From contig CM030337.1 of the NCBI GenBank assembly GCA_017654855.1, positions 1,674,001 through 1,738,000 of the forward strand: a stretch of 64,000 bases of DNA. Reading direction: 5' to 3'. Both the position numbers and the translations under genes were made by a program. The stretch is from Podospora anserina. Its lineage: Eukaryota. The notes beneath the pieces were generated by a model, which was given only the letters and a program-made list of their open reading frames with translations, had not been told where the DNA came from and ran no database searches. Positions 46,160-64,000 of the stretch are shown here, one piece after another (the first letter of the stretch is position 1; every line of letters begins with the position of its first letter).

Positions 46160-46971
46160 CACTACCACCGTTCTGGAAGATAGGCGGGTGTCTCATTGGG
46201 GGTGGCAGAGGGGGATAAGGGGGCTGAGGGTGTTGTGAATTCATGTATATATTATTGGGGTAGGGTTGTTGGATCATTGCTTGGTATGCATGATGGGCTT
46301 GGTGTGGGTTTCCTCCGTTGCTGGCTGCTCTGAATGGAGGATAATCGGTGGGCATATTCATCGGAGGGATGGGGGTAGGATGGATACACTGGGAAAATGT
46401 ATGGATATGGGTGGCTGTTGTCTTGTGTATGGTTTACGCCTTGGACATTTTGGCCTGGGTGATAGCGATGGCTTTCCCTGCTGGATGAAAAGTCCTATCA
46501 GGCAATCTTGAACGGAAAAGAGTTTGATCACAACTGTCTGAGCCCATGCCAAGTAGAGTTCGTATCACAACAAACATGCTTCAAAAGCTTCATAGGCAGA
46601 AAGGCCGTCGTCACTTCACAATTTGTCGACAAAGACCCCGTCCTCCCACGAAATGCCAAGTAATTGACCTTGAAATTCCATTTATAATGCCACAACCTCG
46701 CCTACTCTTTCACATACGACCATAGCCAGCTGAAAGCTCGGGATCCCGTCCGCTCTCCCATCGATAAGCAGCTGAGAGTTATTTTATCTTTGGGGGTGTT
46801 AGAAACGGTGGTTTCACTGTTAGTGCTTATTTTATGCTAAGAGTAAATTCTTTGCCGTATTCTCCGTTTGTTTCAAAACGGTACCTCCTTCGCCGCTCCT
46901 TACTTCATTTGATTATTCTTATGTAAAAGATTTCTAGTCCCCTCCTCTTTCCTTACACCACCTCCCTCTCC

Positions 46972-47070
46972 CTCCGCCTCCCTCCGCCTCCGCCTCCCCC
47001 CTCCCCCCACCCCTATCCCTCTGCCCATCTCCCTCCGCCCTATCTCCCTCTACTTCCTTCCCTCTATAAA
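46972..47070 (+). promoter_or_regulatory. CTCCGC array (46972, 46982, 46988, 47033) plus TATAAA (47065)
   Basis: Seen directly; followed by a 5'UTR intron at 47098-47144 and ATG 47172. Confidence 0.6.
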
Positions 47071-47171
47071 GATCATAGGCGCCACACTTTCCACACTGTA
47101 AGTTGATGCAAATCGTCGATAGTTTGTTAAAACTATTCCTACAGCTTTAAACAGTCCTCACAAACTTAGCC

Positions 47172-47513
47172 ATGGAGCTTCCTCATCAAACAAGATCATA
47201 CTCTCCCCAGGATCCGATGGAGTATGATATTCCCGCATTCCCACCTCCGCCGTATACTCCCTTACATATCACCCGCTCACCTTACACCACTCCTTCCCCG
47301 AGCATCATTTCTGAACCATACACCACTCCTCCCCGAAGCATCGCAGCAGCCGCCTCTAAATGGTCCAAACTCAAGAAATGGTTTTCTTGTAGCGAGCTGG
47401 AAGTAGACGAAAGCACGAAACACTGCTTGTACAAGCTTTGTTGTTGTTGTTGTCCTGTATGTGGGCCGATCTGTGTTAGTATATGGGTACTTGATGACAT
47501 CATGTTACAATAA
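47172..47513 (+). CDS. CYSTM-like small protein (PPPY motif, Cys-rich hydrophobic C-terminus)
   Basis: Pro/Tyr-rich N-terminus, CLYKLCCCCCPVCGPICVSIWVL tail, TATA box and 5'UTR intron. Confidence 0.65.
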   Translation: MELPHQTRSYSPQDPMEYDIPAFPPPPYTPLHITRSPYTTPSPSIISEPYTTPPRSIAAAASKWSKLKKWFSCSELEVDESTKHCLYKLCCCCCPVCGPICVSIWVLDDIMLQ

Positions 47514-47947
47514 ACGGGCGTCTATATCATCAAAGCGTGTTTAAGGATAGAGATAGATTCAGTACTATATAGCTTATAATTAAGAAGCTGGTTCCCGCTC
47601 GGTTACGTTCTAGACGTGGTGCCCGTATCCCAGTTCTCCTGACATTTAAGTTACCCGGTTACAATTTGTATCCCATGACTGATAGACTAAGGACGGTGAC
47701 TCTTTTGGCATGACTTCTGGAGGCGCCCATGCGCCGCTTCAAGCCGGGACGGCCGTTGGAGGTAGACGCAGTCGCGAAACCCTGAGGGCCTAACACTCAT
47801 CCAGCGGCACTGCTATAGGACGGCACGGTTCAAACACGGGGCTATGTCTGAACTTGGTGGCACAGTTGACCATGAAAGCATAGCTAAAAGCGGCCTATCC
47901 TGTCTCTTTTCCCCTTTCTTCTCTAGTTATCGCACTGCTCCCTCCAC

Positions 47948-47983
47948 CTCCGCCCTCCCTCCGCCCTCCCTCCGCCCTCCGCC
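47948..47983 (+). promoter_or_regulatory. CTCCGC array (47948, 47959, 47970, 47977)
   Basis: 11-bp period CTCCGCCCTCC upstream of ATG 48114. Confidence 0.55.
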
Positions 47984-48113
47984 TCTATTCTCCTTTTGTC
48001 TCTCCTTCCATCCTTTCATCATTCAACTTTCTTCCACTCCTTCCCCTCTTCTATTAAATCAAACTTACCATCATCTATTTCCCTTAAACTATACTCTTGT
48101 ATATACTTTAACA

Positions 48114-48496
48114 ATGCATCCAAACTCACGAAAGTGGCGTTGCCTTCATAATTTTGCCAAAATTCCAAAGCGAAAACGTCTAACGAAAATCGAAAGTCTG
48201 GTTGCTATACAAAGATTACGGAAGTCGGATGGGGTTCGCTACATCAAGCGATCCTTACTATGGAGATTGGATGACTCTATATATTGGAGTGTAGTAGATC
48301 GATTATCTTCGAGCAAGCCGTTGAGGAGTGTTTCCCATAACGAGTTCATATACGGTTCGTTCACATCCGTATAAAACACTATCATCAGTTATATATTAAC
48401 CCCTCTTTAGAAGATAATAAGTATGCGAATGAAGAGGGAAAGAAGGGGAAACGTCGCCGGCTTATTCAGTTTACCTCGAAATACCAGATTGCATGA
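48114..48496 (+). CDS. Small basic hypothetical protein (2 exons)
   Basis: Exons 48114-48354 and 48411-48496 joined by a GTTCGT...TTAAC...TAG intron; Lys/Arg-rich. Confidence 0.45.
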
Positions 48497-48975
48497 TATC
48501 TTCTTTGGTTACCAGCACCCTTGATGTTCCGTGTGTGAGAATTAGCCACTTCGTGAGATCATGATGCAACTCTTGTCGTGGTCCTCTCCTTCTTACTCTT
48601 CCTATCTTTCTACCCTTTCTTTTTCACCCACTGTCCTCTCCACACCTCTCCATACCTCAGTACCCAGGAGGCCGTGTAAAATTCAGCCGGCGTGGCCCCT
48701 AAATTAGACCTATGACCTGGTTCTGACCCCCCAGATTAACGCGGACGGCACAGGTTGCGCCGAGCGGCACTGTCACTGACCTGGTGTAATGTCCAACCGT
48801 GGCCCAGTCGCCCAGGATCTTTTGTTACAGTCCTTGCTCAAGGCTCAAAGGTATCGACTGCGCACTCAGGGGAAATGGCATATCTAGGCCAACATCTAGC
48901 TGTAAATAAGTTTGGGCCTTTACCTTCCCTCTACTTTCACTTGCGCCCATTATATCAACAAGTGCAACTTTGAAG

Positions 48976-49698
48976 ATGAAGCAAAAGCATGCTCTGGACA
49001 AGCCAAAAACAACTTGCACGCGATGCCATGGCTCTCGCATATCGAAAAACAGCCATAAAACACTCAAAGGTCACTTCACCAGCGAACTTCTTGCAGGTGT
49101 TGCCTTGGGCGCTATGGACAATCAAAGCGCCCTCTTAACTACACACCCACAACCGCTGCGGATTACACCGGTCCCGGAAGATACCCAAACACTTACTTCA
49201 ACATTTCAAGCGCGTGTAACGAACAGCCAGAAGCTCTCGCGTATTGAGCCACCTGCTTGTCCCAGAGATGGTGGGTTAGAAAACGACAATTCTGCTCTTA
49301 CCGCTCACCCTCCGACCACAGCATCGGCGCCTTTGTCAACGTCGTCAGCCAATGTCTCTCAAATTCTACAACCTCGGTCTATCGCAGAAAAGGCCTTCAT
49401 TAACCCACTTCAATTTCAAGCAATGCTTTTGGACTGGGAATCCTTCGAGTATCCAGTGGAGCTTCCGAGCGACCATCAAGAATGGAATGAGCCAGGGTTG
49501 GTGTATATAGATACTTTTGACTGGATTGTGGCGTCTAGGACCATAGGAGTAGCTTGGAGTTCGGACGTGGTGGAACATGACTGGACTTTGAGCACTGAGC
49601 TTTCGGATCTTCCATGGTACAGGGATAAAGAATGGGATGAGATTAGTGTATCAGAGCTGGTCAACCTCACAAATTTTCAGCTATATGAAGCGTTATAG
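48976..49698 (+). CDS. Hypothetical protein with acidic Trp-rich C-terminal domain (start may be ATG 49114)
   Basis: About 240-codon ORF; C-terminal LLDWESFEYP...FDWIV...LPWYRDKEWDE. Confidence 0.55.
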   Translation: MKQKHALDKPKTTCTRCHGSRISKNSHKTLKGHFTSELLAGVALGAMDNQSALLTTHPQPLRITPVPEDTQTLTSTFQARVTNSQKLSRIEPPACPRDGGLENDNSALTAHPPTTASAPLSTSSANVSQILQPRSIAEKAFINPLQFQAMLLDWESFEYPVELPSDHQEWNEPGLVYIDTFDWIVASRTIGVAWSSDVVEHDWTLSTELSDLPWYRDKEWDEISVSELVNLTNFQLYEAL

Positions 49699-49863
49699 TT
49701 GAATTAAACACATACTTTCTCAAACAATTTACACTTACTCAACTTTGTTCCGGTACACTTATGAGTCAGTTCATCTACAGGAGGGAGTGAAACAATTGTG
49801 TATCACGTAATTACTCTAGAGAGAGGGGCTGGAGGGAATGGAGGGAGCCAGGGGCAGAGCAGG

Positions 49864-50001
49864 GCGGAGGGAGCGGAGGGAGCGGAGGGAGCGGAGGGAG
49901 CGGAGGGAGCGGAGGGAGTAATGAGCAACAGGTTCAAACATAGAAGCACAGCGGCCGACGAGGCTAACTCGTCGTGACCCGCAATCTAAAATCTCTATAT
50001 A
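49864..50001 (+). promoter_or_regulatory. (GCGGAGGGA)6 array plus TATATA (49996)
   Basis: Six perfect 9-bp repeats at 49864-49917, the reverse complement of the CTCCGC motif, upstream of ATG 50093. Confidence 0.6.
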
Positions 50002-50092
50002 TGAGCCGTCTGCCCGTGGCTTTCCCTGTACACTTCGTCTCATATACTCTCCAATTTTGCAAACACACCAAAGTCCACAAGTATCTCGCAAC

Positions 50093-51160
50093 ATGTATCC
50101 CTTGAACACCAATCCGAGCAGCATGCAGCACCTCGCTGCGGCACAAACGAGCGTATCAACAAAACTGCCTTGCGAGCGGTAAGTCTGACAACCGATTCAC
50201 TCTGATCATATCTAACGACTCTTTAGCAATCTTCCCTATCACTACCCTCGCGAATAGTTATCTATCCAGAGGCAGTTGCAAGATCTTGAACAACGTCTCA
50301 AGCGTGACATCGACTTTTCTATGCGACTCTATTCTGCTCAGCTAAGTCAAGCGCTTGTTTCAATGACGAAGGTAGCGGGAAAAGGTCTGGTTGACCGGGA
50401 GAGATTTCCTCTTCAAACTTACCAAGGAGGTCGTTATCACTCGCCTATGGACTCAGTCTCAGCCTACCACCAACAACGCCCAGGTTCTTTTGCGCCTGGT
50501 CCCCCGATCTCCGCGCACAACAACTTAGATCAGTTTCACACCAGTCTCCAGTCTCCGCCTAGTCCCCCGATCCGCACTCAGAATCACTTGAATCAGTCTT
50601 ACACCAGTCCCCAATCTCTTCTTCATTCTTGGACGTGTGGTCAAAACCACGCTGTTCCTCAAATTCCAGTCCAGTTTCATGAAAGTCATCATACACGGAA
50701 TGACAGAATATTTCGACAAGCCTCCACAACAAATGTTTCCGGCTCAACGCGATTTATTCCGCACAACAAGCCAGCTGACTCTTTCAACCACTATGACGCC
50801 GCCAACTGTCTACAGAGCCTGGCTACAGCCGCTGTACTTCAACCTGCAGGTACAAAATCTAAACGGAAAAGCTTGGAAGGACTTGAGTCTCAAAGTAAGC
50901 GTCAACGGACGGTATTACATCAGACATCACCAGCTGAAGAAAAGAGATCGGTTGAGGAGATTACGCTAGCTGAGGACGAGACATCGGTTGAAGAGGATAA
51001 GCTAGCTGAGGACGAGACGTCGGTTCAAGAGGATAAGCCAGCTGAGGAAGAGACAGCTCAGACGCCAGATAAAGAAGAGAAACCGGTCGAAGAGCCGATT
51101 AAGGACGAGATTGTGTGCGCCTCAAGGACAGTCATTAGTATCGCAGGCTTCACTCGTTAA
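50093..51160 (+). pseudogene. Two-exon orphan gene with one in-frame TAG at codon 39 (pseudogene or editing-dependent)
   Basis: Exon 1 50093-50178, intron GTAAGT...CTAAC...TAG, exon 2 50227-51160 in frame except TAG 50255-50257; NLS-like KSKRKS...KRQR; acidic tail. Confidence 0.6.
50948..51055. repeat. 36-bp coding tandem repeat x3 (SVEEDKLAEDET-like)
   Basis: Units start at 50948, 50984, 51020. Confidence 0.85.
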
Positions 51161-51374
51161 ATACGGGTCTGGGGATTCATTTAATTTCTTTAAGTCATGA
51201 CTACCATTGAACAGCGACTGATGTATCAAAACCAAGACACCACTTCCTTCGGACCTTCCGCAGATTCTGCTGTTGTTCAACGCCCACCGTTTTGCTGCAC
51301 AAACTCCATAGCACGGCGAACGACTGTGCTAGGACTATCCTCCCTAGTATCAGTAAAGTAGGTAAATCAGGATT

Positions 51375-51890
51375 CTAGGTCTCTGGGAACACACCTCTGC
51401 TGTCGATTTGACGAATAGTTTGATGAAACCATTCGTTTTTCAAAATGTCTCCCCTTGCATGGAAGTCATCAGACCCTCCCCAGTAGCTATCCGGTCCAAA
51501 AAGACTCATACTGAGATGAAGAACACACTGGGAGCCGATTTGTCGAATTGGCGGGGAAGAAAACACTACACTTGACCACGGTATCCTCGGTAAGATATGA
51601 AGTTTTGCTGTGCCCGTATTCGTTGTGTGATCTGGAGGAGACGAGGGGCGGCAGGAGATTGAGGGGGGCAGACCGGGGAAAAGGGGAGCCGGGGGTGAGC
51701 CGGGGGTGGGGTTAGCCGGGGGGCCGGGGGCGGGGGGGCCGGGACCGGGGTACCGGGGGTGGATTGGCAAAAGCCAGAGGGAGACCGGGGAGAGACCAGG
51801 GGGTACAGGGGAAGGGGGTTCTTGTTGCTGGGGTGTCCAAATTCCTGAGTTTGGATGGCCGAGGAAGGCAGGCCCGCCATATACCTGCAT
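51375..51890 (-). CDS. Proline-rich hypothetical protein (exon structure uncertain)
   Basis: 171-aa ORF over a G-run tract; a possible intron near the 3' end would extend it. Confidence 0.3.
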   Translation of the reverse strand: MQVYGGPAFLGHPNSGIWTPQQQEPPSPVPPGLSPVSLWLLPIHPRYPGPGPPAPGPPANPTPGSPPAPLFPGLPPSISCRPSSPPDHTTNTGTAKLHILPRIPWSSVVFSSPPIRQIGSQCVLHLSMSLFGPDSYWGGSDDFHARGDILKNEWFHQTIRQIDSRGVFPET

Positions 51891-52702
51891 GCATGACCTG
51901 GAACATTGACCAGAGGCCTAGCTGCTGCAGGTTATCCCATGATAAAAGACCAGGCATCTTGTGTCCTATCAAATACTAGCCCCGACGGCAGATAATTCCT
52001 TCAATCCATACACTGCACCTAACCGATGAGGTACCGTAGGTACCACTGACGTTCCATCACAGCTTTTCTCCCAGTTCAATGGGCGGGTGATGATGACAGG
52101 ATGTTTCACTGTGCTTGCTCTCATGAATAATGTGTAGGTACCTGGCAGTTTTCATTACCAAAGCTTTTACAGTGCGGAGATAGGCACAAAAGATTCCGGG
52201 AATCCGAGGGAGATTCTTGCAACAACCTACAACAGTGACCCTTTCGGCATGTAGCTCGACACCTACAGGGCTGTTACCGAGGGAACATACCCCGCCGAAT
52301 GAATTCGGTGCAACTCATATCCGACACCGGTGATCCGATGGTGACCTGAATGGCGTTGGTCTTCATGATCACAGGGAAGAAGAAAGTACGGGAACAAAGT
52401 CCCCTGTTATGAACCAAGCTTCAAGAACGCAAACAGATGAAGAGAACACTGGTACTTTCTAGATAAGGCGGAACATCTTGATGAAGCCAAAAAAGCCACC
52501 ACTTCGTGCCAGTTGCTCTTGTTGGGAAGCTAGTGGAAGTTGTGCACCATAAGGTACCCTACATGAGCAGCTATCGTCTTGTATTCGTTTGTGGTGTGAT
52601 CTTTACCAGCAGAATATTAAGTTGCTTGCTTGCCTGATTCTTGATGTAACAGCAGACACATATTGGAAAGTCGAAACCTGCTTACCTACTTGGACCTGCC
52701 TC

Positions 52703-53874
52703 ATGGACACAGCACCTCCCCGCTGCACTAACTGCACTTCGCAGCAGCTTTTTTGTACCGATATCACTCAAGAAGACATTCAGTGTAATGTACTGGCTTC
52801 ACATCTCTATAGACCGTTCTAACACTTTCTGCAGGCGATGAGTGCAAGAGCCAAAACCGCCGGTGTTTCCCGCCGCCTCCAATCACGCTCTCCGAGCTCT
52901 CCGTTTCCGACGAGGACAGACAGAACGACGAAGCGCTCTGGATCTATCACTACATATTCTTCTTGAAACTTACGCCCCCCGGTCCTGAACAACAAACATT
53001 GCTTGCTACCATCTACCGTGGTTGCCAGAGTTCACCCACCATTCTCTGCGCCATATTATCATTATGTCCACACTCCGATAATGTGGACCTGGCTCGGAGA
53101 AGTGATCTTCTCCATGACCGGGCTCAATTGGGCAGTGATGCTGAAGGGGCCATATGGGTTCCGTTTTCCGGCCTTGTTCGGTCACTCCTGGGAGGAACTA
53201 GTCCGATACAGCATCTCAAGACTCTATGGCACAAGATGCGTCATGCAGAGCACATACCTCCGTATATCTTTGACTTTACGTTGCATTATGTGCGCGTCTG
53301 TAGCTTCCTTTCAGGCGAAACTATAGACGTCAATTATTCCAACTTCCGCAGCCCCCAGTCGGCCTCTGATCTTGACAGAGAATGCATGCAGTTTCTCCCA
53401 GTCGTGTCTGGAATTCAGCAGGGACCCCCTGATGAAGGACGATATTATATATGGAGGGAGAATTGTCGCTCACGGCCGAAACTTAACGCAAGCCCCCAAG
53501 TTCAACTATACTGTGCGACACTCGACTTGTATATTGCAGGGTTATGTAAAAAGGAGTTCCGCCTCAATTTGCCATCTACGTTGGAGTTGCTAAAAAAGCT
53601 GACTTCCGAACCCAACGAAAACTTCTTTGTTCTACTTTTCCCAAGTTTCCTTCTTGGTTTAGTATGCAAGACGAAGTCCGACCGAGATTCAATCACAACG
53701 GCCATCCTGAGTATCAAGGAACACACACAGCTTATAAGTCCTGCAATTATGTTGCAATTCTTGGAGGGAATCTGGGCTCTGGATCTTGAGGAACACTGGC
53801 TTCCGTATTGGCTAAACAATTGGCCTAGGCACTGGAGACTCACGAATGGCAACCTTGAGTTTTTGCCGACCTAG
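52703..53874 (+). CDS. Zn(II)2Cys6 transcription factor with Fungal_trans_2-like C-terminal domain (2 exons)
   Basis: Removing intron 52785-52834 gives CTNCTSQQLFCTDITQEDIQCDECKSQNRRC (C-x2-C-x6-C-x9-C-x2-C-x6-C) in frame with ORF 52963-53874; LLFPSFLLG...LEGIW end. Confidence 0.8.
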
Positions 53875-53953
53875 ACAGCCAAAACATACCTATCTCTTGA
53901 TTCTTCCAACTATCGCAATTACAGTTTCTTTAAGATCATCTGAACGGTTTATA

Positions 53954-54400
53954 TTACACATTTCTAGTGTTTGTTATAAAATCTAGCGGCAGCAGAACCA
54001 AGCAGTCAACCTTCCATAAACAACCTATTCTCCAAAAGACCTTTCCAATACTTTGAACCCCTTCACCGCCTGCAAAGTATATGCAGCCTACGAGCCATGC
54101 TGGCTCTAATTTGCCTGAATGGGAAGCAGACGATATGCGACAGTTTGGGCTTTGTGCTGGCCACCGAGATAACCCCAGATTCTGGAGAGTAGGGGATGGA
54201 CTGAACGCTGGGGAAAGAGACCAGAGATCTGACAATAGGTAAGCTAAAGTCAATCTTTCCAGGTGCTCTTCTGGAAAAGAGAGGTACATACTGGTCGTTA
54301 TGCATGATGCCGAGGCCAGCCATAGCTGAGTGATGATGTCGTTGAAGAAGCTTGATGTGGTGGGGGGACAGATGATCTCCAGTCTACCTGGCAGAAGCAT
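53954..54400 (-). CDS. Hypothetical protein (structure uncertain)
   Basis: 148-aa ATG ORF downstream of TATATATA (54564-54571); splice-like signals nearby not resolved. Confidence 0.35.
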   Translation of the reverse strand: MLLPGRLEIICPPTTSSFFNDIITQLWLASASCITTSMYLSFPEEHLERLTLAYLLSDLWSLSPAFSPSPTLQNLGLSRWPAQSPNCRISSASHSGKLEPAWLVGCIYFAGGEGVQSIGKVFWRIGCLWKVDCLVLLPLDFITNTRNV

Positions 54401-54732
54401 CTAAATCCACGTAGGCGACGTGCGTGTTAAATAGTCTGAGGTACCTACAGTCAACATTAGAATGTGTGATATTTGTGCTCAGTGCGCAGTAACTGTGCCC
54501 TGTGCATGGTTGTCCCGCCTCAGTGCGTGGTGCATGTGTTCTGTCGTCCAACTTCTCCAGCGCTATATATAGCACTTCTTCAAATGAACGAGGTTCATCT
54601 TATAGGAAGAAGGGTCGATTTCGTTTCTTCATCGAAATGTGATGTGTTTTGAGAAGGTGTTGTCAAGGGCTGCTGACATAAACAAAAAACAACTCACCGC
54701 CCATCGAGTCCCAGGTCACTCCCCACCCCCTG

Positions 54733-54849
54733 CTCCGCCTTCGCTCCGCTCCGCCCGCCGCTCCGCCCGCCGCCACGCCAATCACTTTATGTTCAGCACC
54801 ACTTTGCGACTTGGTATGCTTAGCCGCTTTGGCTACCGCTCTTATAAAA
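54733..54849. promoter_or_regulatory. CTCCGC array (54733, 54744, 54749, 54761) in a divergent promoter between two TATA boxes
   Basis: TATATATA at 54564 and TATAAAA at 54843 flank the array. Confidence 0.55.
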
Positions 54850-55223
54850 CAAAAGCTCTTCCCCATGTTCCATTCCATCATTCTTTGTCGGATAATGGCC
54901 GACTTCCTTATCACCTGCACCCTTCAGATAGCTTTGCTTGGAGGCGACATTTACCCTAGCAATGCTGGGCGCGCCTCTACCATATTTCCCGAGAAGTACA
55001 TAAGGTATCAATTCTTTTTGCAATAGTTGACCAGATGGCCACAAGGACTTCCTCTGTTTTCAAGCCGTCGGAGCCGACCCCAGTTGCAGCAACAAGGCTG
55101 GCAGGCAACTTTGCGGCTCAAGTACGCGGATGTTCGCGCCGCACCGGTAAAACACCCCACTGTGGGGCCCAGATATTGGAGCCCTCTTCTCGGCCCAGCC
55201 CAGTTCTACAGAAATTCAGGACA

Positions 55224-56140
55224 ATGTCGGCACCAACTCAGGATGGGATTCGGATCGCCTGTACGCCTTGCCATCGCAAGAAAATAACTTGCAATAAGGA
55301 GTTACCATGCGCCAGATGCACTCGCCTGAAGTTGGCATGTGATGAACGGTATTCCGGCAGATACAAAGCCCGCTCAACCCCCCACACCAGGTCTCCTGAA
55401 GCCGCGTCAAGGACCGAAATTTCCCTGCGCAGTGCTCAGTCGCAAAGCGCTACCCCGGGTGACGACGAAGGAGCTACCTCAGTGTCCAACGATCGAGCAG
55501 CAGATCCGCCTACACCCAGCGAGGATTTGGAGCCGCGCCCACATAAACGAAGGCTGGTAGGACTGCGCGACTTGCTCAACGGTAAGAAACGTGTCATCAT
55601 TCTTGGATCGTGTTGTTCTGACTTTATGTTGTAGTCGACGAAACCCTCCCTACTTTCGACGCTGTACCCCCATTAGTTCACGAACCCTGGAATCCCAGGT
55701 TCTATCGGTTCTGGTATCCCTGGAGGAAGCTTGCTAGTTATCTCGAAATGTCGGCCCCCGAAGTGCTCGAATTTACATACAATGGAGGGTACTTGACGTC
55801 AAACTCCGTACTCCATGTCGGGCTGCAGCTTCAGATCCGTTCCGAGCGATACCCAGACGCATCCAAGGTCTGGATCGAACGGCCGAAACTCCTCACTTCA
55901 ATAACGCAACATCTAGAGGTTTCAGGAACTTGGAACTGTGGTTTGATTGGCGCCGATTCCTCACCAAAAGGTGTCATGGTATCGTGTGTCGCAGTGCTTC
56001 CAGGGATTGACGGTGTGGTTCTGCCAGCAACTCTCGGAGAGATAGTGATAAGGTGGCAGCAGCTATCAAGTCTTCTTTTGTTCCGTCAGTGGGGGGGCTT
56101 CTATAGCACGAGGCTAGGACCGGCGATGACCGCTTTATAA
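55224..56140 (+). CDS. Compact Zn(II)2Cys6 transcription factor with unknown C-terminal domain (2 exons)
   Basis: ACTPCHRKKITCNKELPCARCTRLKLAC; intron 55582-55634 joins in frame to ORF 55748-56140. Confidence 0.85.
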
Positions 56141-56487
56141 CCCAGCTTTTGCACTATAAATCCACCACACGCTCGGGAACTCGCCCATTACATAAACCTC
56201 AGAAGTAACATAGAGATATTTCCCAGATTGTGTCTTACTCCGACCGGTCACATAGAAATTTCCATCCACGGCCACAATACCATCCGGTCCATCGAAGTCG
56301 ACAATCGCAGCAACGCAATCACGCTCGTTCGTATCTATGCGTAGCTCCCCTACACCGCAAAGCACGTCAGCAAGTCAGCAAAACAGCAAGGTAGAGGAGC
56401 AGAGTAAAACCTACCTAGCCCAAGCTGCTTCTGAACCTCATCCAGAACCTCATCCTCACTCCTCCCACACACTTTTTTGCCGGTCAT
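56135..56487 (-). CDS. Small spliced orphan protein (MTGKKVCGRSEDEV...WWIYSAKAGL)
   Basis: ATG 56487, 65-nt intron 56350-56414 (GTAGGT...GCTGAC...TAG), open frame to TAA 56135. Confidence 0.5.
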
Positions 56488-56758
56488 ACCGGTCACTGGA
56501 CTGGTCACATAGAAATTTCCATCCACGGCCACAATACCATCCGATCCATCGAAGTCGACAATCGCAGCAACGTAATCACGCTCGTTCGTATCTATGCGTA
56601 GCTCCCCTACACCGCAAAGCACGTCAGCAAGTCAGCAAAACAGCAAGGTAAAGGGGCAGAGTAAAACTTACCTAGCCCAAGCGGCTTCTGAACCTCATCC
56701 AGAACCTTGTCCTTACTCCTCCCACACACTTTTTTGCCGGTTATACCGGTCACTGGAC
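56245..56758. repeat. 257-bp direct tandem duplication (about 56245-56501 and 56502-56758)
   Basis: Near-identical copies; differences are mostly transitions, several CpA/TpA. Confidence 0.95.
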
Positions 56759-57557
56759 GAAGGGGAAGTGTCGTTGTTGTCGAAAGGGTTGGTTGTGACA
56801 GAGGCTTTGTCGCGCGGATTTGTGGGGGTGGCCGGGCTATCACGTGAAATGTTGACTGATCGCAGTGCGACCGCTGCCTGCACGTGTCCTGGGTGCCACC
56901 TCTTCAGTCCAAACCAGCCAATCGACACGAGTAACCAGTTACAACACTGGACCAAATGCTGATACTGCGACGAAACGAAAATGCATATACAGATTGCAAT
57001 AACTATCCCAAGAACTGAAACTAACGACAACAGAAGACCCTTGTTGAGGTTTGGTCGGCTTCTATACTTGGTGGAATGAGCCTTGATCCAAATGATCAAG
57101 ACTACAAAGTAGGCGTGAAAAATAGCAGGCGAAAGCCATTCGAACTCGTAGACGTTTCTCTTGTAAATCTGCCAAAATCCAAAAGCAGATAGGATCATCT
57201 CGCAAACAATAATCCCGATTAGGAAGCCGTCGTTGTAAGCCCCCGGTCCTGTAAGAAGCTGCACACAAGTCAGCGTAAAGCATACAGAGCGAACATGCGA
57301 GAGAGTACCTGAAAGACGGGGTAGACCAGAAATGTGACGGCTTTCCAGGCAAGAAGGTATGGATAGCTTCTCCAAATAATGAATGGAATACCAGGTATAA
57401 ACGTAGCAACAAGGCAGGCCCACGCAGCAACAGCAAGCCAACGGGACTTGCTCTTCTGAAGCCAAAGATCAATGCTGGAGACAACGAGGAACACCACGGT
57501 GACGATATATGCTGCAATGGCAGCATAGAATTCGGGGGCTGCTACCGGGGGCTGCAT
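56713..57557 (-). CDS. Seven-transmembrane (GPCR-like topology) orphan protein, 264 aa (2 exons)
   Basis: Exons 57557-57309 and 57258-56713, 50-nt intron with GCTGAC branch; seven hydrophobic segments and a Ser/Thr-rich tail. Confidence 0.7.
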
Positions 57558-58354
57558 CTTTTCGAATCTCGCAGAGACAATCGAGACAAGGCAAAAATAA
57601 GGCAACTAAAGTGGCTTGCAGGACTTGAAAGTGCAGTTTTCAGGGGGCGGGGGGAGGGAATGGGTCGCGTCCCAGGCTTATATGTTCAGCATCGTTTCCA
57701 GGCAAGCGGGCGGACGGACGGATCGACTGGATTGCGCTCCCACAATCAAATTGTGTGATCGTCCACCCATCCTTGCATGATAAGCTCCTACTCCACAGGC
57801 GACATGAGGGCAACGGAGAAAGAAGCAATGCGTTGTATATGTCAACGCCTCTCTTGCATCCGACCAGCACCCTCCGAGGCGTGCATCTGGGGAAGGGGTT
57901 GTGGGGGGGGGGGTAGCGGAAGAACAGGGATTGGGAGGGGATTTGCCATGATCAGACAGCTGGTCTTGACATGGGGGCTTGTATGTCCCAGGATGTGGGT
58001 GCCACTCAGCAGTTCAGTATCTCGCCACCGACGAAGCTCGAAAGAACGTCGAAAGTAACAGAATGTTTCTTTAATCATTTCGTATAGTATAATCAGTGAC
58101 AAAGCCGGAAAGAAGCCAATGTGTGAAAGTATGAAGATGTGTAGGGTGATGAATAGATCTATCTGAACGTGGGAAGCCAAGTGGGCAGAAATACATAAAG
58201 GCCATAAAGCCGGTGATAAGAAAGCATCATAAAGGCGTGAAGGAAACCAAAGCAGATGGCCTAGCGAAGAGCGCAAAGACCTGTGAAAAAGCTGAAAAGT
58301 AAAATAAGATCTCAGGGGGAACTCTGCTAGGCATTCGAATCTGAGTAAGGCCAC

Positions 58355-59038
58355 TTAGAGAGACGGTGGGATATCGTCCTCTATGGTGGACGAAAAGCTG
58401 CAAGTGGCTGACGTGGTTGGCGATCCGGGAAGGTTTGGCGAACTGTTATTGCTCTGCGATACATAGCTCGTTGAAGGGCGAGAACTGCCAGGTTGACTTC
58501 GTGGCTCCGAGCCTTCAATAAGAAGACGCCATTCGTTCTTATCGTTTCTTTGTGCTGAAAACTCAACTGTTGCAACCAAAAATCGGTCACCGCAGTTAAG
58601 CATAGACATGGTTAGATTCAGTTTCTGGCTCCGAGCCCATTCCTGCAGAGCAGCCTGGACGCCACGGGGACTGTTGTATGTGTCGGAAAAAAGATCACCA
58701 GTGGGGGGAGTTGCCGGGCTTGCTTGAAATCCCTCGTTTGATGGTATGGATGGCTGTGAATGGGATTCAGTTTGGCTCTGGCTTGCGGTCTTTGCCCGTT
58801 TCGTCTGAGACTGTGATGCTAGTTTTGCCTGTCCTGCCCCTCGTTTCTTGCGCTGCTGCAAACTGTCTGGCGTCTGCTCAAGTGGCTCAAAATCTTTCAG
58901 TACTAAGCTTGTATTGTTGGAGCTCTCCGCTTTAGTACAGCTCGCTGTGGGTGTTGAGAGGTTGCTTGTGGCTTGTGTTAAAGGGAGACAAGAGCTGCTT
59001 GGAGTTGGCCGTTCCGGCTGTGAGGATACCGATGTCAT
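58355..59038 (-). CDS. Hypothetical nuclear protein with degenerate FAR1/AFT(MULE)-like segment
   Basis: ATG 59038; NLS-like RKKR and KRAK; TYNSPRGVQAALQEWARSQKLNL...EWRLLI. Confidence 0.55.
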   Translation of the reverse strand: MTSVSSQPERPTPSSSCLPLTQATSNLSTPTASCTKAESSNNTSLVLKDFEPLEQTPDSLQQRKKRGAGQAKLASQSQTKRAKTASQSQTESHSQPSIPSNEGFQASPATPPTGDLFSDTYNSPRGVQAALQEWARSQKLNLTMSMLNCGDRFLVATVEFSAQRNDKNEWRLLIEGSEPRSQPGSSRPSTSYVSQSNNSSPNLPGSPTTSATCSFSSTIEDDIPPSL

Positions 59039-59199
59039 GACATAAAATGGGGAATGTCTGAAGCTAATGGCTGCTACCTTGTTAGTACATCTTAGGGAAC
59101 GGGGCACATAAATATACCACCTTTCTGGAGGGAGCCAGAGCAGAGGGCGGCCGAAGCGGCTAACCATTTTGCCTGTTCATACCTAATTGCGTGGATGAC

Positions 59200-59234
59200 C
59201 TCGCTCCGCCCGTAACTGCTCGCTCCGCCCGCCG
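59200..59234 (-). promoter_or_regulatory. Duplicated CTCGCTCCGCCCG motif upstream of the 59038 gene
   Basis: 13-mer at 59200 and 59219; TATATTTA on the minus strand at about 59110-59117. Confidence 0.5.
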
Positions 59235-59532
59235 ATTCTTGTTCGGTCAGCCCTGCACCCCCATTACTCCAAACAACATGGCTGTGAATTCACCACCCAT
59301 GCAAAAGTCTTGGTCTTGGTCAGAGAGTGAAAAGAGTTGATGCATGTAGCTATTTATTCGCCAATGCCCACTGATTGGCTATTTCCCATATCATGACCTC
59401 ATCCTGGGTGGGAATTGATGCCTACCTACCATCCCACCCACGCCCTTCCCTCAGAACAAACAGCGGCGCGGGGTACCGCTTGATGTGGTGTGAGCTGACA
59501 GACGTGATACCAGAAGGAGCAGGGCCAGCACT

Positions 59533-60935
59533 TTAGATGTCTTCCGTCCGGATAGTCGCATTGATTACCTCAATGTGAAGCCCCTTGGGTACCTCGGCCG
59601 ATGTTGGACAGTGACCAGTGGGTGTCCACACCCAGCATAGTTGCCGAGCGTTTCTCACGATAACCGCTTGGCCCTCAACAACTGTCACCCTTAGCGGTCG
59701 GGAAACGTGTATGACTTTTATGTAGAAGTAAACGTCCTTGTTATTTTCGAGCCTGCTGCTGTCCTAGAGTATCCGTCAGTGAGCGTCAGAAGCCACCGCG
59801 CGCAGAGTCATACCACAGTTATAGTTGATGACGTGGAAGACTCCTCAGAGGGCTCCGAAGTGCTTGCACTCAGGGTCGACTCTCCGGGCAAGATATGCGC
59901 ACAAGCATGGATCGGGATTCTGAACTTGCTTGCTATGTTCAATCCACGGGATCGCTCGACCTTGATCTTGAAGTCAATGTCACCCAGACAGTGCAAGTCG
60001 AGATCTGCACCAATGCAAACAGACATGCGCTTTCCCCCTTTCGACTCCGCTTGGAATGTCGAACTGTGTTCCCATGCACGCCACAGCTCGGTGTAAATCT
60101 CAAACAAGCTCCGGCGATCAATCCCAACATGGTCAGATTTTGCGAATTGAGAAAGGGTCAAATCACTCATTTGTCCAATCTCGATCTCTGCGTCCGGAAT
60201 TTCACGGATAAGTCTGGACCGTATTTGGGTGGCTGCATCGTCCCCAATCGAACAGTCGCACTTCTGTTGGCTGCCCACCCCGTCGCCTTGGTTTTCCGCT
60301 TCTCCTGCAGGTGACACTGACATGGGGCTCTCGGAGGCAGGGGTGGAGTGGCGTGCCTGTGGTGAAGGTTCGTGGATGCCTATGTCACACCGTTTGTTAG
60401 AGATGTATATTCCGTTTCTTAGGTAACGCTTTACTCACTCTCCTGGAAGCCTGTGGCTCGCAGAATCAACCCGTCTACATCGTCTCGCCACTTCAGCAAC
60501 GTAACATCTATAGGCCCAAGTCAGTACTTGGCGACCAGTTCAGCTATTAAACACTCGTGTCTTACCAAGTAGAAACTTGTTTGCAAGGGTCGTGTCTTTA
60601 CGAAGAAGAATATTGTAATAATGGTGCCAATATGCGTCCTTATCGAGGTCCGCCAAGTTAAGCCACTGAAATGCTGCTCTCTGTACCATCTCGTACCTCG
60701 AAATACTGCCCCATTCGGAGAACCGGCAGTACTTTGCTAGACGGACCATACCCGCTATCGTAATCTTAGGTGCATCAAAAGGACTTTCGTCGTCAGAGTA
60801 CCGACCTGAGGCGGTCAACCGGACAAGTGGCTCAGGATTGTGTTTGGTGGGGACGTTCGTTCGCTCCTGTACCGCCTGGAGTATTTCCCAAGCGACATTC
60901 TCTCCAGGTTGCGAGATAATATCCCGAAGCTCCAT
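59533..60935 (-). CDS. Four-exon 411-aa protein with a divergent HMG-box-like N-terminal region
   Basis: Exons 60935-60566, 60507-60439, 60379-59814, 59763-59533 join in frame through three canonical 50-59 nt introns; SRYEMVQRAAFQWLNLADLDKDAYW resembles HMG helices 2-3. Confidence 0.7.
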
Positions 60936-61648
60936 TCTGTACCTCAGCCGTCCTGGTATGTGTTGTGACCAGAGTCTATCAAGCGGCCGACGTTGAAGCC
61001 AAATTGCGGGGCTGCGGATAGGCGCTTGCTGCAGGCTAATCAGAACGCTCCATTGTCAATAAAATTAAGCCGCCTGGTGGACGGGCGAAGACCCTGGCTT
61101 GTTTTGTGCCAATGAGGGGGCCCCGTGCTATACCTAATGGGTGTGCGATTAGTCGGGTGCCCCGCAATGCGGCCCCCCCCTGGCTCTCTGTTTTCCCCAG
61201 CACTTGGCACGAGGATGGGATTTCAGGGTCTCAAGGAGTCCCCGGGCCTTCATGTTCCACCTTTCTTTACTTTCATTTTGGCGATACTCCCACATTCTAC
61301 CGGATCCCTTCGGCGTCTCAGCGACCAATTGAGGTATTAGGAGAAAACTGCTCCAATAAAGACTCGTGGGCTCGGGACAAGGTTATACAGGTGGTTTTAG
61401 AAGATACCTAGAGTCCTAGACCAGCGAGAAACAAGGCGGGATTCAGCTGTAATTTGGTCCGGGCTATATATCGAGGCAGGCTGATGTATAATGTCATCAA
61501 ACAGAAAAACAGAACTTCATTCTTTTTTGACCCCCCTAATAGTTGACGAAAAGGCGATTGGATTCGTCGGAAGGGTTAAAGCTGTAGCCTACCATAGAAG
61601 ACGGATCCAACACGCCTTGATAATGGAGGATCATATCCGTACTGTCCT

Positions 61649-61830
61649 GGAACTGATGCCAGTCTCCCAAAGAACCCCCTCCAACAGTATCGTCCCGGAA
61701 CTGATGCCAGTCTCCCAAAGAACCCCCTCCAACAGTATCGTCCCGGAACTGATGCCAGTCTCCCACAAAACCCCCTCCAACAGTATCGTCCCGGAACTGA
61801 TGCCAGTCTTCCACAAAACCCCCTCCAACA
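61649..61830. repeat. 48-bp coding tandem repeat, about 3.8 copies (GGGSLGDWHQFRDDTV)
   Basis: Units start at 61649, 61697, 61745, 61793. Confidence 0.95.
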
Positions 61831-61914
61831 TTGCCATTACCAATACCCTTCACATCGTGTACCGTCATATCACACATCCAAAAACTCGGATCGGTTGTCC
61901 AGATATCGCCCCCT

Positions 61915-62330
61915 ACGATGCCGTCTGCCAGAACATCGTTGTCCATATCGCGAATCCCAATAGCCTCCACACACTGTGCCACGCTACTCTCTGCTCCAAT
62001 GTGGCATATCTGTGTACCGTCTGCCGGAGCACCGTCGGCCACAACACCGTCGGCCAGAATGCCGTCTGCCAGAACACCGTTTTCCATATCGCGAATCCCA
62101 ATAGCCTCCACACACTGTGCCACGCTACTCTCTGCTCCAATGTGGCATATCTGTGTACCGTCTGCCGGAGCACCGTCGGCCACAACACCGTCGGCCACAA
62201 CACCGTCGGCCAGAACACCCTCTGCCAGAACACCGTTTGCCACGATGCCGTCTGCCAAATCGCAAATACCAATAACCTCCATACGCTGTCCCATGCTACT
62301 CTCTGCTGTAGTGTGGCATATCTGTGTGAT
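61915..62330. repeat. 141-bp coding repeat (2 close copies plus 1 diverged) with nested 15-bp GV(L/V)AD units
   Basis: Shared block at 61943 and 62084; diverged copy near 62258. Confidence 0.9.
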
Positions 62331-63258
62331 GTCTTGCCCCGCGTCAATATTTTCTTCCGTGTTGCCAGCTTTCCCCATCTTGATGTTGTCATTTGAATCG
62401 CCGCCTTTCTGTGTGCCATTGACCTTCTCAACGAGTGGTGGCTGGCCGTTTTTCGACAGATTGTACAGTTTACTTCTGACTTTGGTCTCAGGTATGCCGA
62501 GTGCCTCCGAAAGTTCTGGGAGAGAGCGCCCGGAATTGTGACGAAGATAATCCACCTCCATCGCCGTCCACACGTGTATGTTCCGTCGTGGAATGCTCAA
62601 GCCCTGACTGGCGCATGCCCTACGAATGCGCCTCAACTTTCCCTTAACTTTCTCAGAGGATCTTCCGAGTGAATCTCCTATTTCTCGATCAGTAAAAGTC
62701 AAGTTTTTAAGAATAAACTCTTCTTCAAGCTTCGTCCACGTCCCTTCCTTTGGGGGAGGTTTCAAACCCAGTTGCCTCCTTTTCCAGTTGATTGCATTGG
62801 AAGATCTGTTGAGTGCCTTTGATAATTGGTTGGCACGAAGAAAAGCCGCATTTTCAACAAGAAACTTCTCTTCATTTTCCGTCCATCGTGGCGTTGATTT
62901 GCTATCGGTTTGGATGGTATGTATTGCGCTTAATCTTCTGTGGATTGCCAGGGGAGATCTCTTGAGTGCCCTTGATAGCTAGGTGATAGTAAGAGAAGTC
63001 GAATTTTCAAGAAGAAACTTCTTTTCACCATCCGTCCATAGTCGATTTGCGGTTTGGACTTCCTCGGCGTGGGGCGTATTGTCGACGGCCCTTTCCGGGA
63101 AAGGAGAAATCGAATGTGCCATAGTGCGGACAACGAACAAAAAGATAATAAAAGCGCGCAGATTGTGGGGGATCTGTGGATTGAGAAGAAGTGTTCCTCT
63201 TATTGTTTTAAAATCATGAGTTGACTGCGATAATTGCATGTAATTGTAAACCGGAGGG

Positions 63259-63386
63259 GCGGGCGGAGAGAGAAATCCGCGGCGCGACAATCTGATCTTC
63301 GGTATCCTAGCCCCAATCGCGATTAGAGCCAATCTTGCTGTCGTCAGCTTCATGCTGGACAGGGGGTGGGCGGAGAAGCTCTCCGC
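63259..63386 (-). promoter_or_regulatory. GCGGGCGGAG and inverted GCGGAGA-N3-TCTCCGC motifs upstream of the Myb-like gene
   Basis: Seen at 63259-63268 and 63370-63386. Confidence 0.5.
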
Positions 63387-64000
63387 GGCATGTACTCCAA
63401 TAAATCACCTAATTTTACTAAGGTAACCAACAACCAGAAGCTTAGAACATCCCCGGCTCACTGATATTGTGATCTAACCCAGGTAGGCATTGCGAGACGA
63501 AATGGCGATCATCCAAGCGACCGAAAATGTGCTTGTGCGCGTTGCTCCTCTGCTCCATGTCTGGAAAGCCACTCACAGCCGCTCTCCAACTAGCACTCTA
63601 GGTACCTAGGTACCTATGCTCCTCCCCTTGAGTGGTAGTGTGCAGGTTTGGCGCTTTGCATGGCCGGTGGCCTTGCTCCCAACACTGTGTAATGCAAACA
63701 TCAGTTGGCCTGGATGCCTTTTATCTGACTTGTATAATATCTTCATCCACCATACACATTCTTTACATACCTATCTAGGTACCTACCTGCCTATCTTACT
63801 TGCTTATTGCCTTTATTTGACAGTACTGGGTCCGCTTTCACTACCTAAGTACCTTACTCGACCGACTCGACATGGCCGTTGGATTGGAGCCGTGGGTGTA
63901 TGTCCTCCGGGGTTGTTGTGCCATCGCCGTTTTCGTCGCCATCGTCTTCGCAATCCCTATTGTATCGTCATTCGGTACGGGGGATGCTAGAATCTACACA

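What the first reader, a model, noticed from the sequence alone, without database searches (positions are those of the whole stretch)
46972..63386. One cis-motif (CTCCGCCC / GGGCGGAG) recurs upstream of most island genes
Seen: clusters at 46972-47038 (4 copies), 47948-47982 (4), 49864-49917 (6), 54733-54766 (4), 59204 and 59223 (2), 63259-63386 (3, including an inverted pair), plus GCGGGCGGA at 57706. They occur in both orientations, usually about 30-170 bp from a TATA box. The 14-mer CGCTCCGCCCGCCG is exact at 54747, 54759 and 59221. I saw no such arrays in the core promoters. Established: CGG triplets are Zn2Cys6 half-sites, and GCGGAG also fits the CreA/Mig1 SYGGRG site. Inference: an island-wide regulon, possibly driven by the island's own Zn2Cys6 factors.
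Basis: partly seen in the sequence, partly recalled or inferred. Interest (0 to 1): 0.78.

Follow-up and report, generated by a model that had tools for sequence, protein, structure and literature searches.

The report
Repeated promoter motif in fungal Starship
A giant fungal transposon carries clusters of one short DNA word just upstream of about a third of its genes, almost all at one end, which suggests, without yet proving, that the element switches a block of its own genes with its own regulator.

Summary
The motif clusters are real. The 'island' is the captain-distal third of a 58.6-kb Starship in a 5S rRNA gene of Podospora, very probably the catalogued Pans_Starship2 (Arwing family). 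All clusters lie where stated, but the shared word is CTCCGC(C): 11 of the 23 listed copies are the exact 8-mer. CTCCGC ranks first of 2,080 hexamers for clustering in the element; 6 of 22 genome-wide triple arrays lie in it (P about 4e-13) and 2 more in paralogous fragments. Flanks are unrelated and spacing varies (5-19 nt), as for independent sites of a monomeric factor. It is not element-wide: 8 of 14 rough gene starts in the window, 0 of 12 in the central 32 kb. Seven other CreA-site variants are not enriched. Lead binder: the expressed Zn2Cys6 gene at 55224 (canonical KK, no conserved dimer helix, own array); 52703 lacks the KK. Rival: a three-finger C2H2 factor (cargo or host). No binding is shown, and genes without arrays are transcribed too. 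My paper searches found no such Starship motif; the scan had not noted it on other DNA.

The parts
46710..46778 (+). 5' half of the 5S rRNA gene into which the Starship inserted; the 3' half follows at G000:C7:1779406
   Evidence: dozens of 5S copies match both halves; intact copy C1:5399652-5399819 aligns to 46667-46778 and to the other end with a 4-nt overlap (direct repeat GAGA-like)
46779..46930 (.). captain-distal terminus of the 58.6-kb Starship (C7:1720779-1779405); 10-nt inverted repeat TTTTATCTTT at 46782; three AACGG words
46972..47038 (+). array A, 4 copies, spacings 10, 6, 45; 27 nt before TATAAA, 127 nt before ATG 47172
   Evidence: spliced contig 47097-47155 in 1 of 4 runs
47172..47513 (+). 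small Pro/Cys-rich ORF (113 aa) behind array A, no Pfam hit
47948..47982 (+). array B, 4 copies, spacings 11, 11, 7; 128 nt before a short unverified ORF at 48114
49862..49914 (-). array C, 6 copies, 9-nt unit; 173 nt before ATG 50093 (+), opposite orientation to that gene
52703..53874 (+). atypical Zn2Cys6-like gene with Fungal_trans_2 domain; no array; Q-Q in place of the K-K of Gal4
54733..54766 (+). array D, 4 copies, spacings 11, 5, 12; between a minus-strand spliced transcript (53969-54584) and the Zn2Cys6 gene
   Evidence: joints 54228-54292 and 55580-55634 in 4 of 4 runs
55224..56140 (+). Zn2Cys6 gene (287 aa, = PODANS_6_2500), lead candidate reader of the arrays
   Evidence: Pfam Zn_clus; names and relatives; alignment; spliced RNA contigs
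57706..57722 (-). single TCCGCCC with tandem TCCG units, about 25 nt before TATAAG of a membrane-protein gene (ATG 57557); kept in two diverged paralogous promoters on C1
59202..59234 (+). array E, 2 copies 19 nt apart; 162 nt before ATG 59038 (-)
   Evidence: intron 59070-59183 in 1 of 4 runs
61536..63122 (-). Myb/SANT-like four-repeat gene with an in-frame TAG at 62979-62981
63259..63386 (-). array F, two GGGCGGAG 107 nt apart plus one inverted CTCCGC; 133 nt before the Myb-like ATG

Best explanation
The arrays are homotypic clusters of a transcription-factor site, G-strand consensus (N)GGCGGAG(G/C), that define a sub-regulon of a Starship: the captain-distal module (both Myb/SANT-like genes, one Zn2Cys6 gene, several small unknown genes) and one promoter 5 kb inside the captain end. 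One or two ancestral sites per promoter were multiplied locally by slippage, which tunes their number. The most likely reader is the element's own Zn2Cys6 protein at 55224, binding each CGG-centred site as a monomer, so spacing and orientation are free, and also controlling its own promoter. Shown: enrichment, position, independence of flanks, retention in paralogues, expression and conservation of the candidate.
For: CTCCGC is first of 2,080 hexamers for clustering: 8 two-copy and 6 three-copy clusters in 58.5 kb against 1 and 0 in 204 kb of flanking core. Genome-wide, 26 of 44 triple matches (6 of 22 loci) are in the element, P=4e-13 given 16 loci elsewhere; 2 of those 16 are paralogues of the captain-side array; outside the element the counts (18 and 12) are near the reversed-pattern controls (10 and 10). 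In 119 kb of non-coding DNA outside the element CTCCGCC (13) is mid-rank among 42 permutations, so it is not a common host promoter word. 8 of 9 arrays end 127-192 nt before a candidate ATG (ATGs are my picks). Repeat units differ (9, 11, 12/13, 18 nt) and 34 of 36 flank pairs are no more alike than shuffles. In two diverged C1 paralogues of the 57557 promoter the TCCGCC word is kept next to the TATA while upstream DNA is not; C1 paralogues of the captain-side array have 3 copies against 14. The 55224 protein has the K-K that aligns with Gal4's CGG-reading loop, keeps the cluster and a basic tail almost unchanged in a relative that is 45% identical overall, and has no conserved stretch where Gal4 has its dimer helix; monomeric Zn2Cys6 factors with one CGG site are known (Pho7, AlcR; PMC6265462, passages). 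It is spliced in 4 of 4 runs and has array D upstream.
Against: No binding or reporter data. Spliced transcripts also come from genes with no array (51170-51625, 56242-56758, 59327-61400), so arrays are not needed for expression in the element. The C1 fragments that keep the motif gave no copy of the 55224 zinc cluster: the paralogue of its C-terminal domain there has another N-terminus. 23 further CTCCGC in the element are isolated and show no flank consensus. The word also fits C2H2 codes and SYGGRG. Four of the arrays are also canonical G-quadruplex patterns. No distant related element with DNA could be examined. Two flank pairs (D-E, C-E) narrowly beat all 60 shuffles, so some promoters may share ancestry.
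Confidence: 0.4

Rival explanations
1. The arrays are functional sites, but for a three-finger C2H2 factor: the element's own captured copy (C7:1763411, = PODANS_6_2450) or a host relative (C7:931077, Crz1 at C4:581219, C1:6146389). This would tie the module to a host programme such as calcineurin stress signalling.
For: Pfam zf-C2H2. Helices RRYNLSA / RKTDCER / RKDILSR give G-GCG-NAG by the recalled finger code, which fits 7 of the 8 conserved bases; G precedes GCGGAG in 17 of 19 distinct units against 43 of 106 isolated core copies. The host paralogue (54% identical fingers) and two more host factors share this helix layout. C2H2 proteins bind as monomers.
Against: The G expected three bases before GCG (Crz1 core GNGGCK, PMC9604740, passage) is in 7 of 19 units, no more than in core copies (43 of 106); instead G two bases before is enriched (13 of 19 against 18 of 106). 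The conserved 57708 site reads GGCGGAC, with CGGA repeats. The cargo gene lies in the array-free centre and has another repeat (TGGCGCTG x7) upstream. The database allele P0140 has lost zinc ligands in two fingers. No excess of the word in host non-coding DNA.
Confidence: 0.27
2. The arrays are structural or neutral: pyrimidine-rich promoter tracts expanded by slippage, possibly acting as G-quadruplexes or nucleosome-poor DNA, with no specific reader.
For: Arrays A, B, C and the captain-side array match the canonical G3 quadruplex pattern (4 of 14 such patterns in the element). Copy number differs 14 against 3 between paralogues. Most arrays are perfect tandem repeats.
Against: Quadruplex patterns are not enriched in the element (2.4 per 10 kb against 3.2 in flanking core) and arrays D, E, F are not such patterns. 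C/G-rich core tracts rarely hold the word (3 of 103). Of the 30 permutations of CTCCGC, those that do not overlap the motif give at most one triple cluster. Different units converge on one word, in both orientations.
Confidence: 0.17
3. CreA/Mig1 sites that put the module under carbon catabolite repression.
Against: The other 7 variants are at or below core density and form at most one triple cluster; no array gene looks like a carbon-use gene.
Confidence: 0.06
4. The arrays are binding sites for the Myb/SANT-like proteins and serve transposition (recruiting the captain), not transcription.
For: Array A is 190 nt from the left end; both Myb-like genes have arrays; a recruiting role for Starship MYB/SANT has been proposed (PMC12256816, passages).
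Against: The captain end has no array within 5 kb; arrays sit before ATGs; both ends instead share three AACGG words, a better Myb-type candidate.
Confidence: 0.05

Closest known systems
Pans_Starship2 of Podospora anserina (starfish benchmark, PMC11162782 Table S1; captain podans1_209680 in fam09 = Arwing family, Tables S3, S4 and Table 1)
   Same: Chromosome 6 (names), minus-strand captain ending about 2,926-2,929 nt from the element end, direct repeat TCTC/GAGA, about 60 kb.
   Different: 58.6 kb here against 60.2-60.4 kb listed; identity is by geometry and gene names, not by aligning the record. The table rows I saw say nothing on promoters or motifs.
FTF1/FTF2 and the aacTGCCGa motif on Fusarium oxysporum accessory chromosomes (PMC5140021, passages)
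   Same: An accessory-encoded Zn2Cys6 factor, a CGG-type half-site enriched in accessory promoters, several copies per promoter.
   Different: There binding and activation were shown and a core homologue has the same site; here the unit is one transposon, targets are its own regulatory/auxiliary genes, sites are tandem arrays, and binding is untested.
Monomeric Zn2Cys6 factors AlcR and Pho7 (PMC6265462, passages)
   Same: One asymmetric CGG site, no dimer coil; AlcR's pentamer (A/T)GCGG overlaps the GCGG core.
   Different: Core-genome metabolic regulators; the base before GCGG is G here; no homology beyond the zinc cluster was tested.
Starship MYB/SANT genes at the captain-distal edge (PMC12256816; 10.1101/2025.02.28.640899)
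   Same: Myb-like genes in the captain-distal part; the second one is opposite in sense to the captain.
   Different: Two genes, 15-22 kb from the end; one is in the captain's sense and has a premature stop; no promoter motif is mentioned in the passages seen.
VANDAL/VANC self-encoded motif-binding system of Arabidopsis (recalled; lead from earlier finding e1-7124770)
   Same: A transposon whose non-coding DNA accumulates tandem copies of a short word that an element-encoded protein may read.
   Different: VANC is an anti-silencing protein; here the arrays are promoter-proximal and the candidate is an ordinary transcription factor.

Membership tests
Starship | DUF3435 tyrosine-recombinase captain as first gene | tested here: met
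   PF11917 at C7:1777280-1778353 (-), E=1e-16; four exons without internal stops by my reading
Starship | Clean boundaries with short direct repeat and inverted repeat | tested here: met
   split 5S gene, 4-nt overlap, 10-nt inverted repeat
Starship | Empty site in another genome | not testable with these tools
   no relatives held; Table S1 of PMC11162782 lists an empty-site contig for Pans_Starship2
Arwing family | Captain falls in the family clade | not tested
   no tree built; taken from Table S4 for the matching published captain
Zn2Cys6 regulon with own factor (FTF1-like) | Motif enriched in promoters of the mobile region | tested here: met
Zn2Cys6 regulon with own factor (FTF1-like) | Factor binds the motif and changes target expression | not testable with these tools
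   needs DAP-seq/EMSA and mutants
Dimeric Zn2Cys6 site (Gal4 type) | Two CGG at fixed spacing and orientation | tested here: not met
   spacings 5, 6, 7, 9, 10, 11, 12, 13, 16, 18, 19, 45, 107
Crz1 response element | GNGGCK core | tested here: not met
   first G in 7 of 19 distinct units against 43 of 106 core copies
CreA/Mig1 sites | SYGGRG variants enriched together | tested here: not met
   1 of 8 variants enriched
G-quadruplex promoter tracts | Four G3 runs with short loops, enriched over background | tested here: inconclusive
   4 of 8 arrays match the pattern; no enrichment in the element; folding not tested

The most novel reading that the evidence does not exclude
A eukaryotic giant transposon carries a private transcriptional circuit: an element-encoded monomeric Zn2Cys6 factor reads a word the host hardly uses, controls itself and the Myb/SANT-like auxiliary genes, and site number is tuned by slippage; the Myb-like proteins in turn bind AACGG triplets at both termini. 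This would be a fungal counterpart of the master switches of bacterial integrative elements and would map which genes are the element's own backbone and which are passengers.
Probability: 0.3. Interest if true: 0.8.

Novelty: new variant of a known kind. Interest (0 to 1): 0.52.

Why it matters
How Starships control their own genes, and what their MYB/SANT genes do, is open in the papers I saw. This element is catalogued and has an apparently intact captain in a model fungus, so the motif gives a direct experiment: one candidate factor, eight arrays, one split between array-bearing and array-free genes. If true, motif scans could separate backbone from cargo in other Starships. If the host's Crz1-like factors read it, the element is wired to a host programme instead, which is also informative.

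Tried and rejected
Related loci in metagenome contigs: none, with the Zn2Cys6 alignment (71 pattern hits, 0 confirmed) or the captain exon (28 hits, 0 confirmed). Protein searches with the cargo C2H2 and the second Myb-like protein found only their own clusters. The AlphaFold model of the 55224 protein was unusable (pLDDT 33.5); no fold search was run. RNA: no listed holder is on record as RNA; the 4 runs laid are RNA by guess and contigs only; they left 47755-51009 and almost all of 61426-64000 (genes behind arrays B, C, F) without cover, which is not counted for or against. The loose end before 46866 in 3 of 4 runs was not found in 147 loci or the window, and 46790-47600 has no second copy in the genome. 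The 100 kb beside the C3 captain-end fragment and 60 kb around the broken C5 captain hold no arrays and no matching cargo. C1 paralogues of the 63872 gene, of the 52703 gene and two other C1 Zn2Cys6 genes have no arrays upstream. My first idea, that the cargo C2H2 is the better reader, was lowered. Rfam found only the C3 5S fragment; the split gene was shown by BLAST. Paper searches for a Starship promoter motif or for GGCGGAG in fungal promoters (listings only) showed none. Scan look-ups by words, relatives and sequence were empty. PMC3334620 and PMC10936905 (passages) added nothing decisive.
Full report
Setting. The window is G000:C7:1674001-1738000 of a 36-Mb fungal genome; protein names place it in the Podospora anserina complex. 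Below, 'ext' means window coordinates continued into the 200 kb fetched downstream; C7 = ext + 1,674,000.

Observation. All listed clusters exist when the word is CTCCGC; the exact 8-mer accounts for 11 of the 23 listed copies, and the 14-mer is exact at 54747, 54759 and 59221, with 2 other copies genome-wide. Against 300 dinucleotide shuffles in 200-nt blocks the interval has 29 CTCCGC (mean 8.1, max 17), 6 clusters (0.11, max 2) and 11 exact 8-mers (0.76, max 4). Strict TATAWA is within 170 nt of 6 of 10 arrays against 25% of random positions.

The island is a Starship. A DUF3435 captain lies at C7:1777280-1778353 on the minus strand, with stops only in apparent introns. A 5S rRNA gene is split: first half at 46710-46778, second half from ext 105406, with a 4-nt overlap against an intact copy and a 10-nt inverted repeat. 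The element is 58.6 kb; the window shows its captain-distal third. Table S1 of PMC11162782 lists Pans_Starship2 (60.2-60.4 kb, repeat TCTC, empty site known), and Tables S3/S4 put a minus-strand chromosome-6 captain at the same distance from the end into fam09, the Arwing family (supplement rows and passages). So the element is very probably known; I did not align the record. 5S targeting is known (PMC9156397, PMC11162782; passages).

Where the motif is. Beyond the window there are two more arrays: 8 copies (18-nt unit) at ext 68063-68194 before a second Myb-like gene, and 14 copies at ext 100388-100557. CTCCGCCC density is 8.4 per 10 kb in the distal 21.5 kb, 0.3 in the central 32 kb and 0.5 in core. 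By my rough list of 32 gene or transcript starts, 11 have 2 or more copies within 600 nt: 8 of 14 in the window, 3 of 18 beyond, 0 of 12 in the centre (JmjC, BTB, C2H2, kinase-like and others), none at the captain. Genome-wide, 26 of 44 triple matches (6 of 22 loci) are in the element (P=4e-13); 14 of 26 double 8-mer matches are too. Two outside loci are paralogues of the captain-side array in a region of C1 full of fragments related to this element. Of 13 outside triple loci checked, 8 overlap a frame of 150 codons or more; 3 were not checked. CTCCGC ranks first of 2,080 hexamers for clustering. C/G-rich tracts elsewhere rarely hold it (3 of 103 against 7 of 12), and it is mid-rank in host non-coding DNA.

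Anatomy. The 44 array copies tabulated reduce to 19 distinct units with consensus N-G-G-GCGGAG-G/C; spacings run from 5 to 19 nt plus 45 and 107. Eight of nine arrays end 127-192 nt before a candidate ATG (the H start was 4 nt off in the script; ORFs behind B and H are unverified). With arrays masked, 34 of 36 flank pairs are no more alike than shuffles; D-E and C-E share short blocks. Paralogous promoters keep the word: TCCGCC next to the TATA of the 57557 gene in two C1 copies, and 3 copies against 14 at the captain-side array. This pattern, one word in unrelated promoters, free spacing and orientation, local expansion, is what clustered sites of a monomeric factor look like (inference).

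Expression. Four runs guessed to be RNA, from 4 studies, contigs only, give spliced joints beside arrays A (1 of 4), D (both sides, 4 of 4) and E (1 of 4), and also for three array-free genes. Arrays are therefore not required for transcription in the element.

Who reads it. The 55224 protein (PODANS_6_2500) has a canonical cluster whose K-K aligns with Gal4's, a basic tail conserved in relatives from Triangularia and Cladorrhinum that are 45% and 36% identical overall, no conserved dimer helix, its own array and spliced RNA. Monomeric Zn2Cys6 binding to one CGG site is established for Pho7 and AlcR (PMC6265462, passages). The conserved 57708 site is a run of CGGA units, which fits a CGG reader. 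The 52703 protein has Q-Q there and no array. A cargo three-finger C2H2 gene, a shortened relative of a conserved host gene, predicts G-GCG-NAG by the recalled finger code and three host factors share the layout; but the Crz1-type first G is not enriched (7 of 19; PMC9604740, passage), the gene lies in the array-free centre, and one database allele has lost zinc ligands. CreA: 1 of 8 variants enriched. Quadruplex: 4 arrays match, no enrichment overall. Myb-like proteins: both termini carry three AACGG within 150 nt, the only 5-mer to do so; 111 of about 5,000 random window pairs share any such 5-mer; that this is a Myb core is recalled. Against the lead: no binding data, and the C1 fragments that keep the motif yielded no copy of this zinc cluster.

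Known and new. Self-regulated accessory DNA is known (FTF1; PMC5140021, passages), and MYB/SANT genes at the far edge of Starships are known with an open function (PMC12256816, 10.1101/2025.02.28.640899; passages). Passages of 10.1101/2024.06.28.601215, PMC8092012 and PMC10104507 mention no shared cargo promoter motif, and seven searches listed no paper on one; I read no paper whole, most subscription journals are missing, the one supplement searched was cut when stored, and preprint supplements were closed. Verdict: a real, element-specific promoter motif in a known Starship; probably functional (about 0.75 summed over readers), reader unproven. New variant of a known kind, interest 0.52.

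Noticed in passing
window 46804, 46864, 46877 and L010:1264, 1299, 1310: Three AACGG words within 150 nt of each Starship end, the only 5-mer with 3 copies at both; candidate sites for the Myb-like proteins.
   Followed up: partly
L008:5018-5109 (C7:1763018): A second array type, TGGCGCTG x7, about 300 nt before the cargo C2H2 gene; one more copy lies 150 nt inside the captain end.
   Followed up: no
window 46866: In 3 of 4 RNA-guess runs a contig joins other sequence to this position; not found in the window or 147 loci; may be an insertion in another allele (published allele is 1.6 kb longer).
   Followed up: partly
window 62979-62981: In-frame TAG in the first repeat of the Myb-like gene, in a context typical of repeat-induced point mutation.
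   Followed up: no
G000:C1:5870001-6070000 (L086-L105), also L173, L176: At least 200 kb of duplicated, shuffled fragments sharing many genes with this Starship; includes a second copy of a host Msn2/Seb1-like C2H2 gene (C1:5886793, same fingers as C1:4951607).
   Followed up: partly
L134 (G000:C3:3014850-3015219): 370-nt copy (94%) of the captain-side terminus joined to a 5S half, with no matching cargo in the next 90 kb: trace of an earlier insertion.
   Followed up: partly
window 56242-56758: 257-nt tandem duplication holding two spliced minus-strand units with very deep contigs in all 4 runs; paralogues on C1.
   Followed up: no
window 51169-51625 and 51640-51810: A spliced minus-strand transcript without a long ORF, right behind a 170-nt G-rich tract that lacks the motif.
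   Followed up: partly
window 54817-54843 and 59142-59167: Promoters D and E share a second block, TTAGCCGCTT, between array and TATA-like box, in the same sense as the gene.
   Followed up: no
window 48976-49698 and L009:7517-8224: Two ORFs with a basic N-terminus and an acidic, Trp/Phe-rich C-terminus like activation domains; no Pfam hit, no array.
   Followed up: no
L166 (G000:C4:892239): The only clean triple of GGGCGGAG seen outside the element family, about 2 kb before a host Zn2Cys6-like gene.
   Followed up: partly
window 52122-52415 and 57085-57117: Run X15 shows clustered C>T and G>A differences, as from a mutated allele.
   Followed up: no
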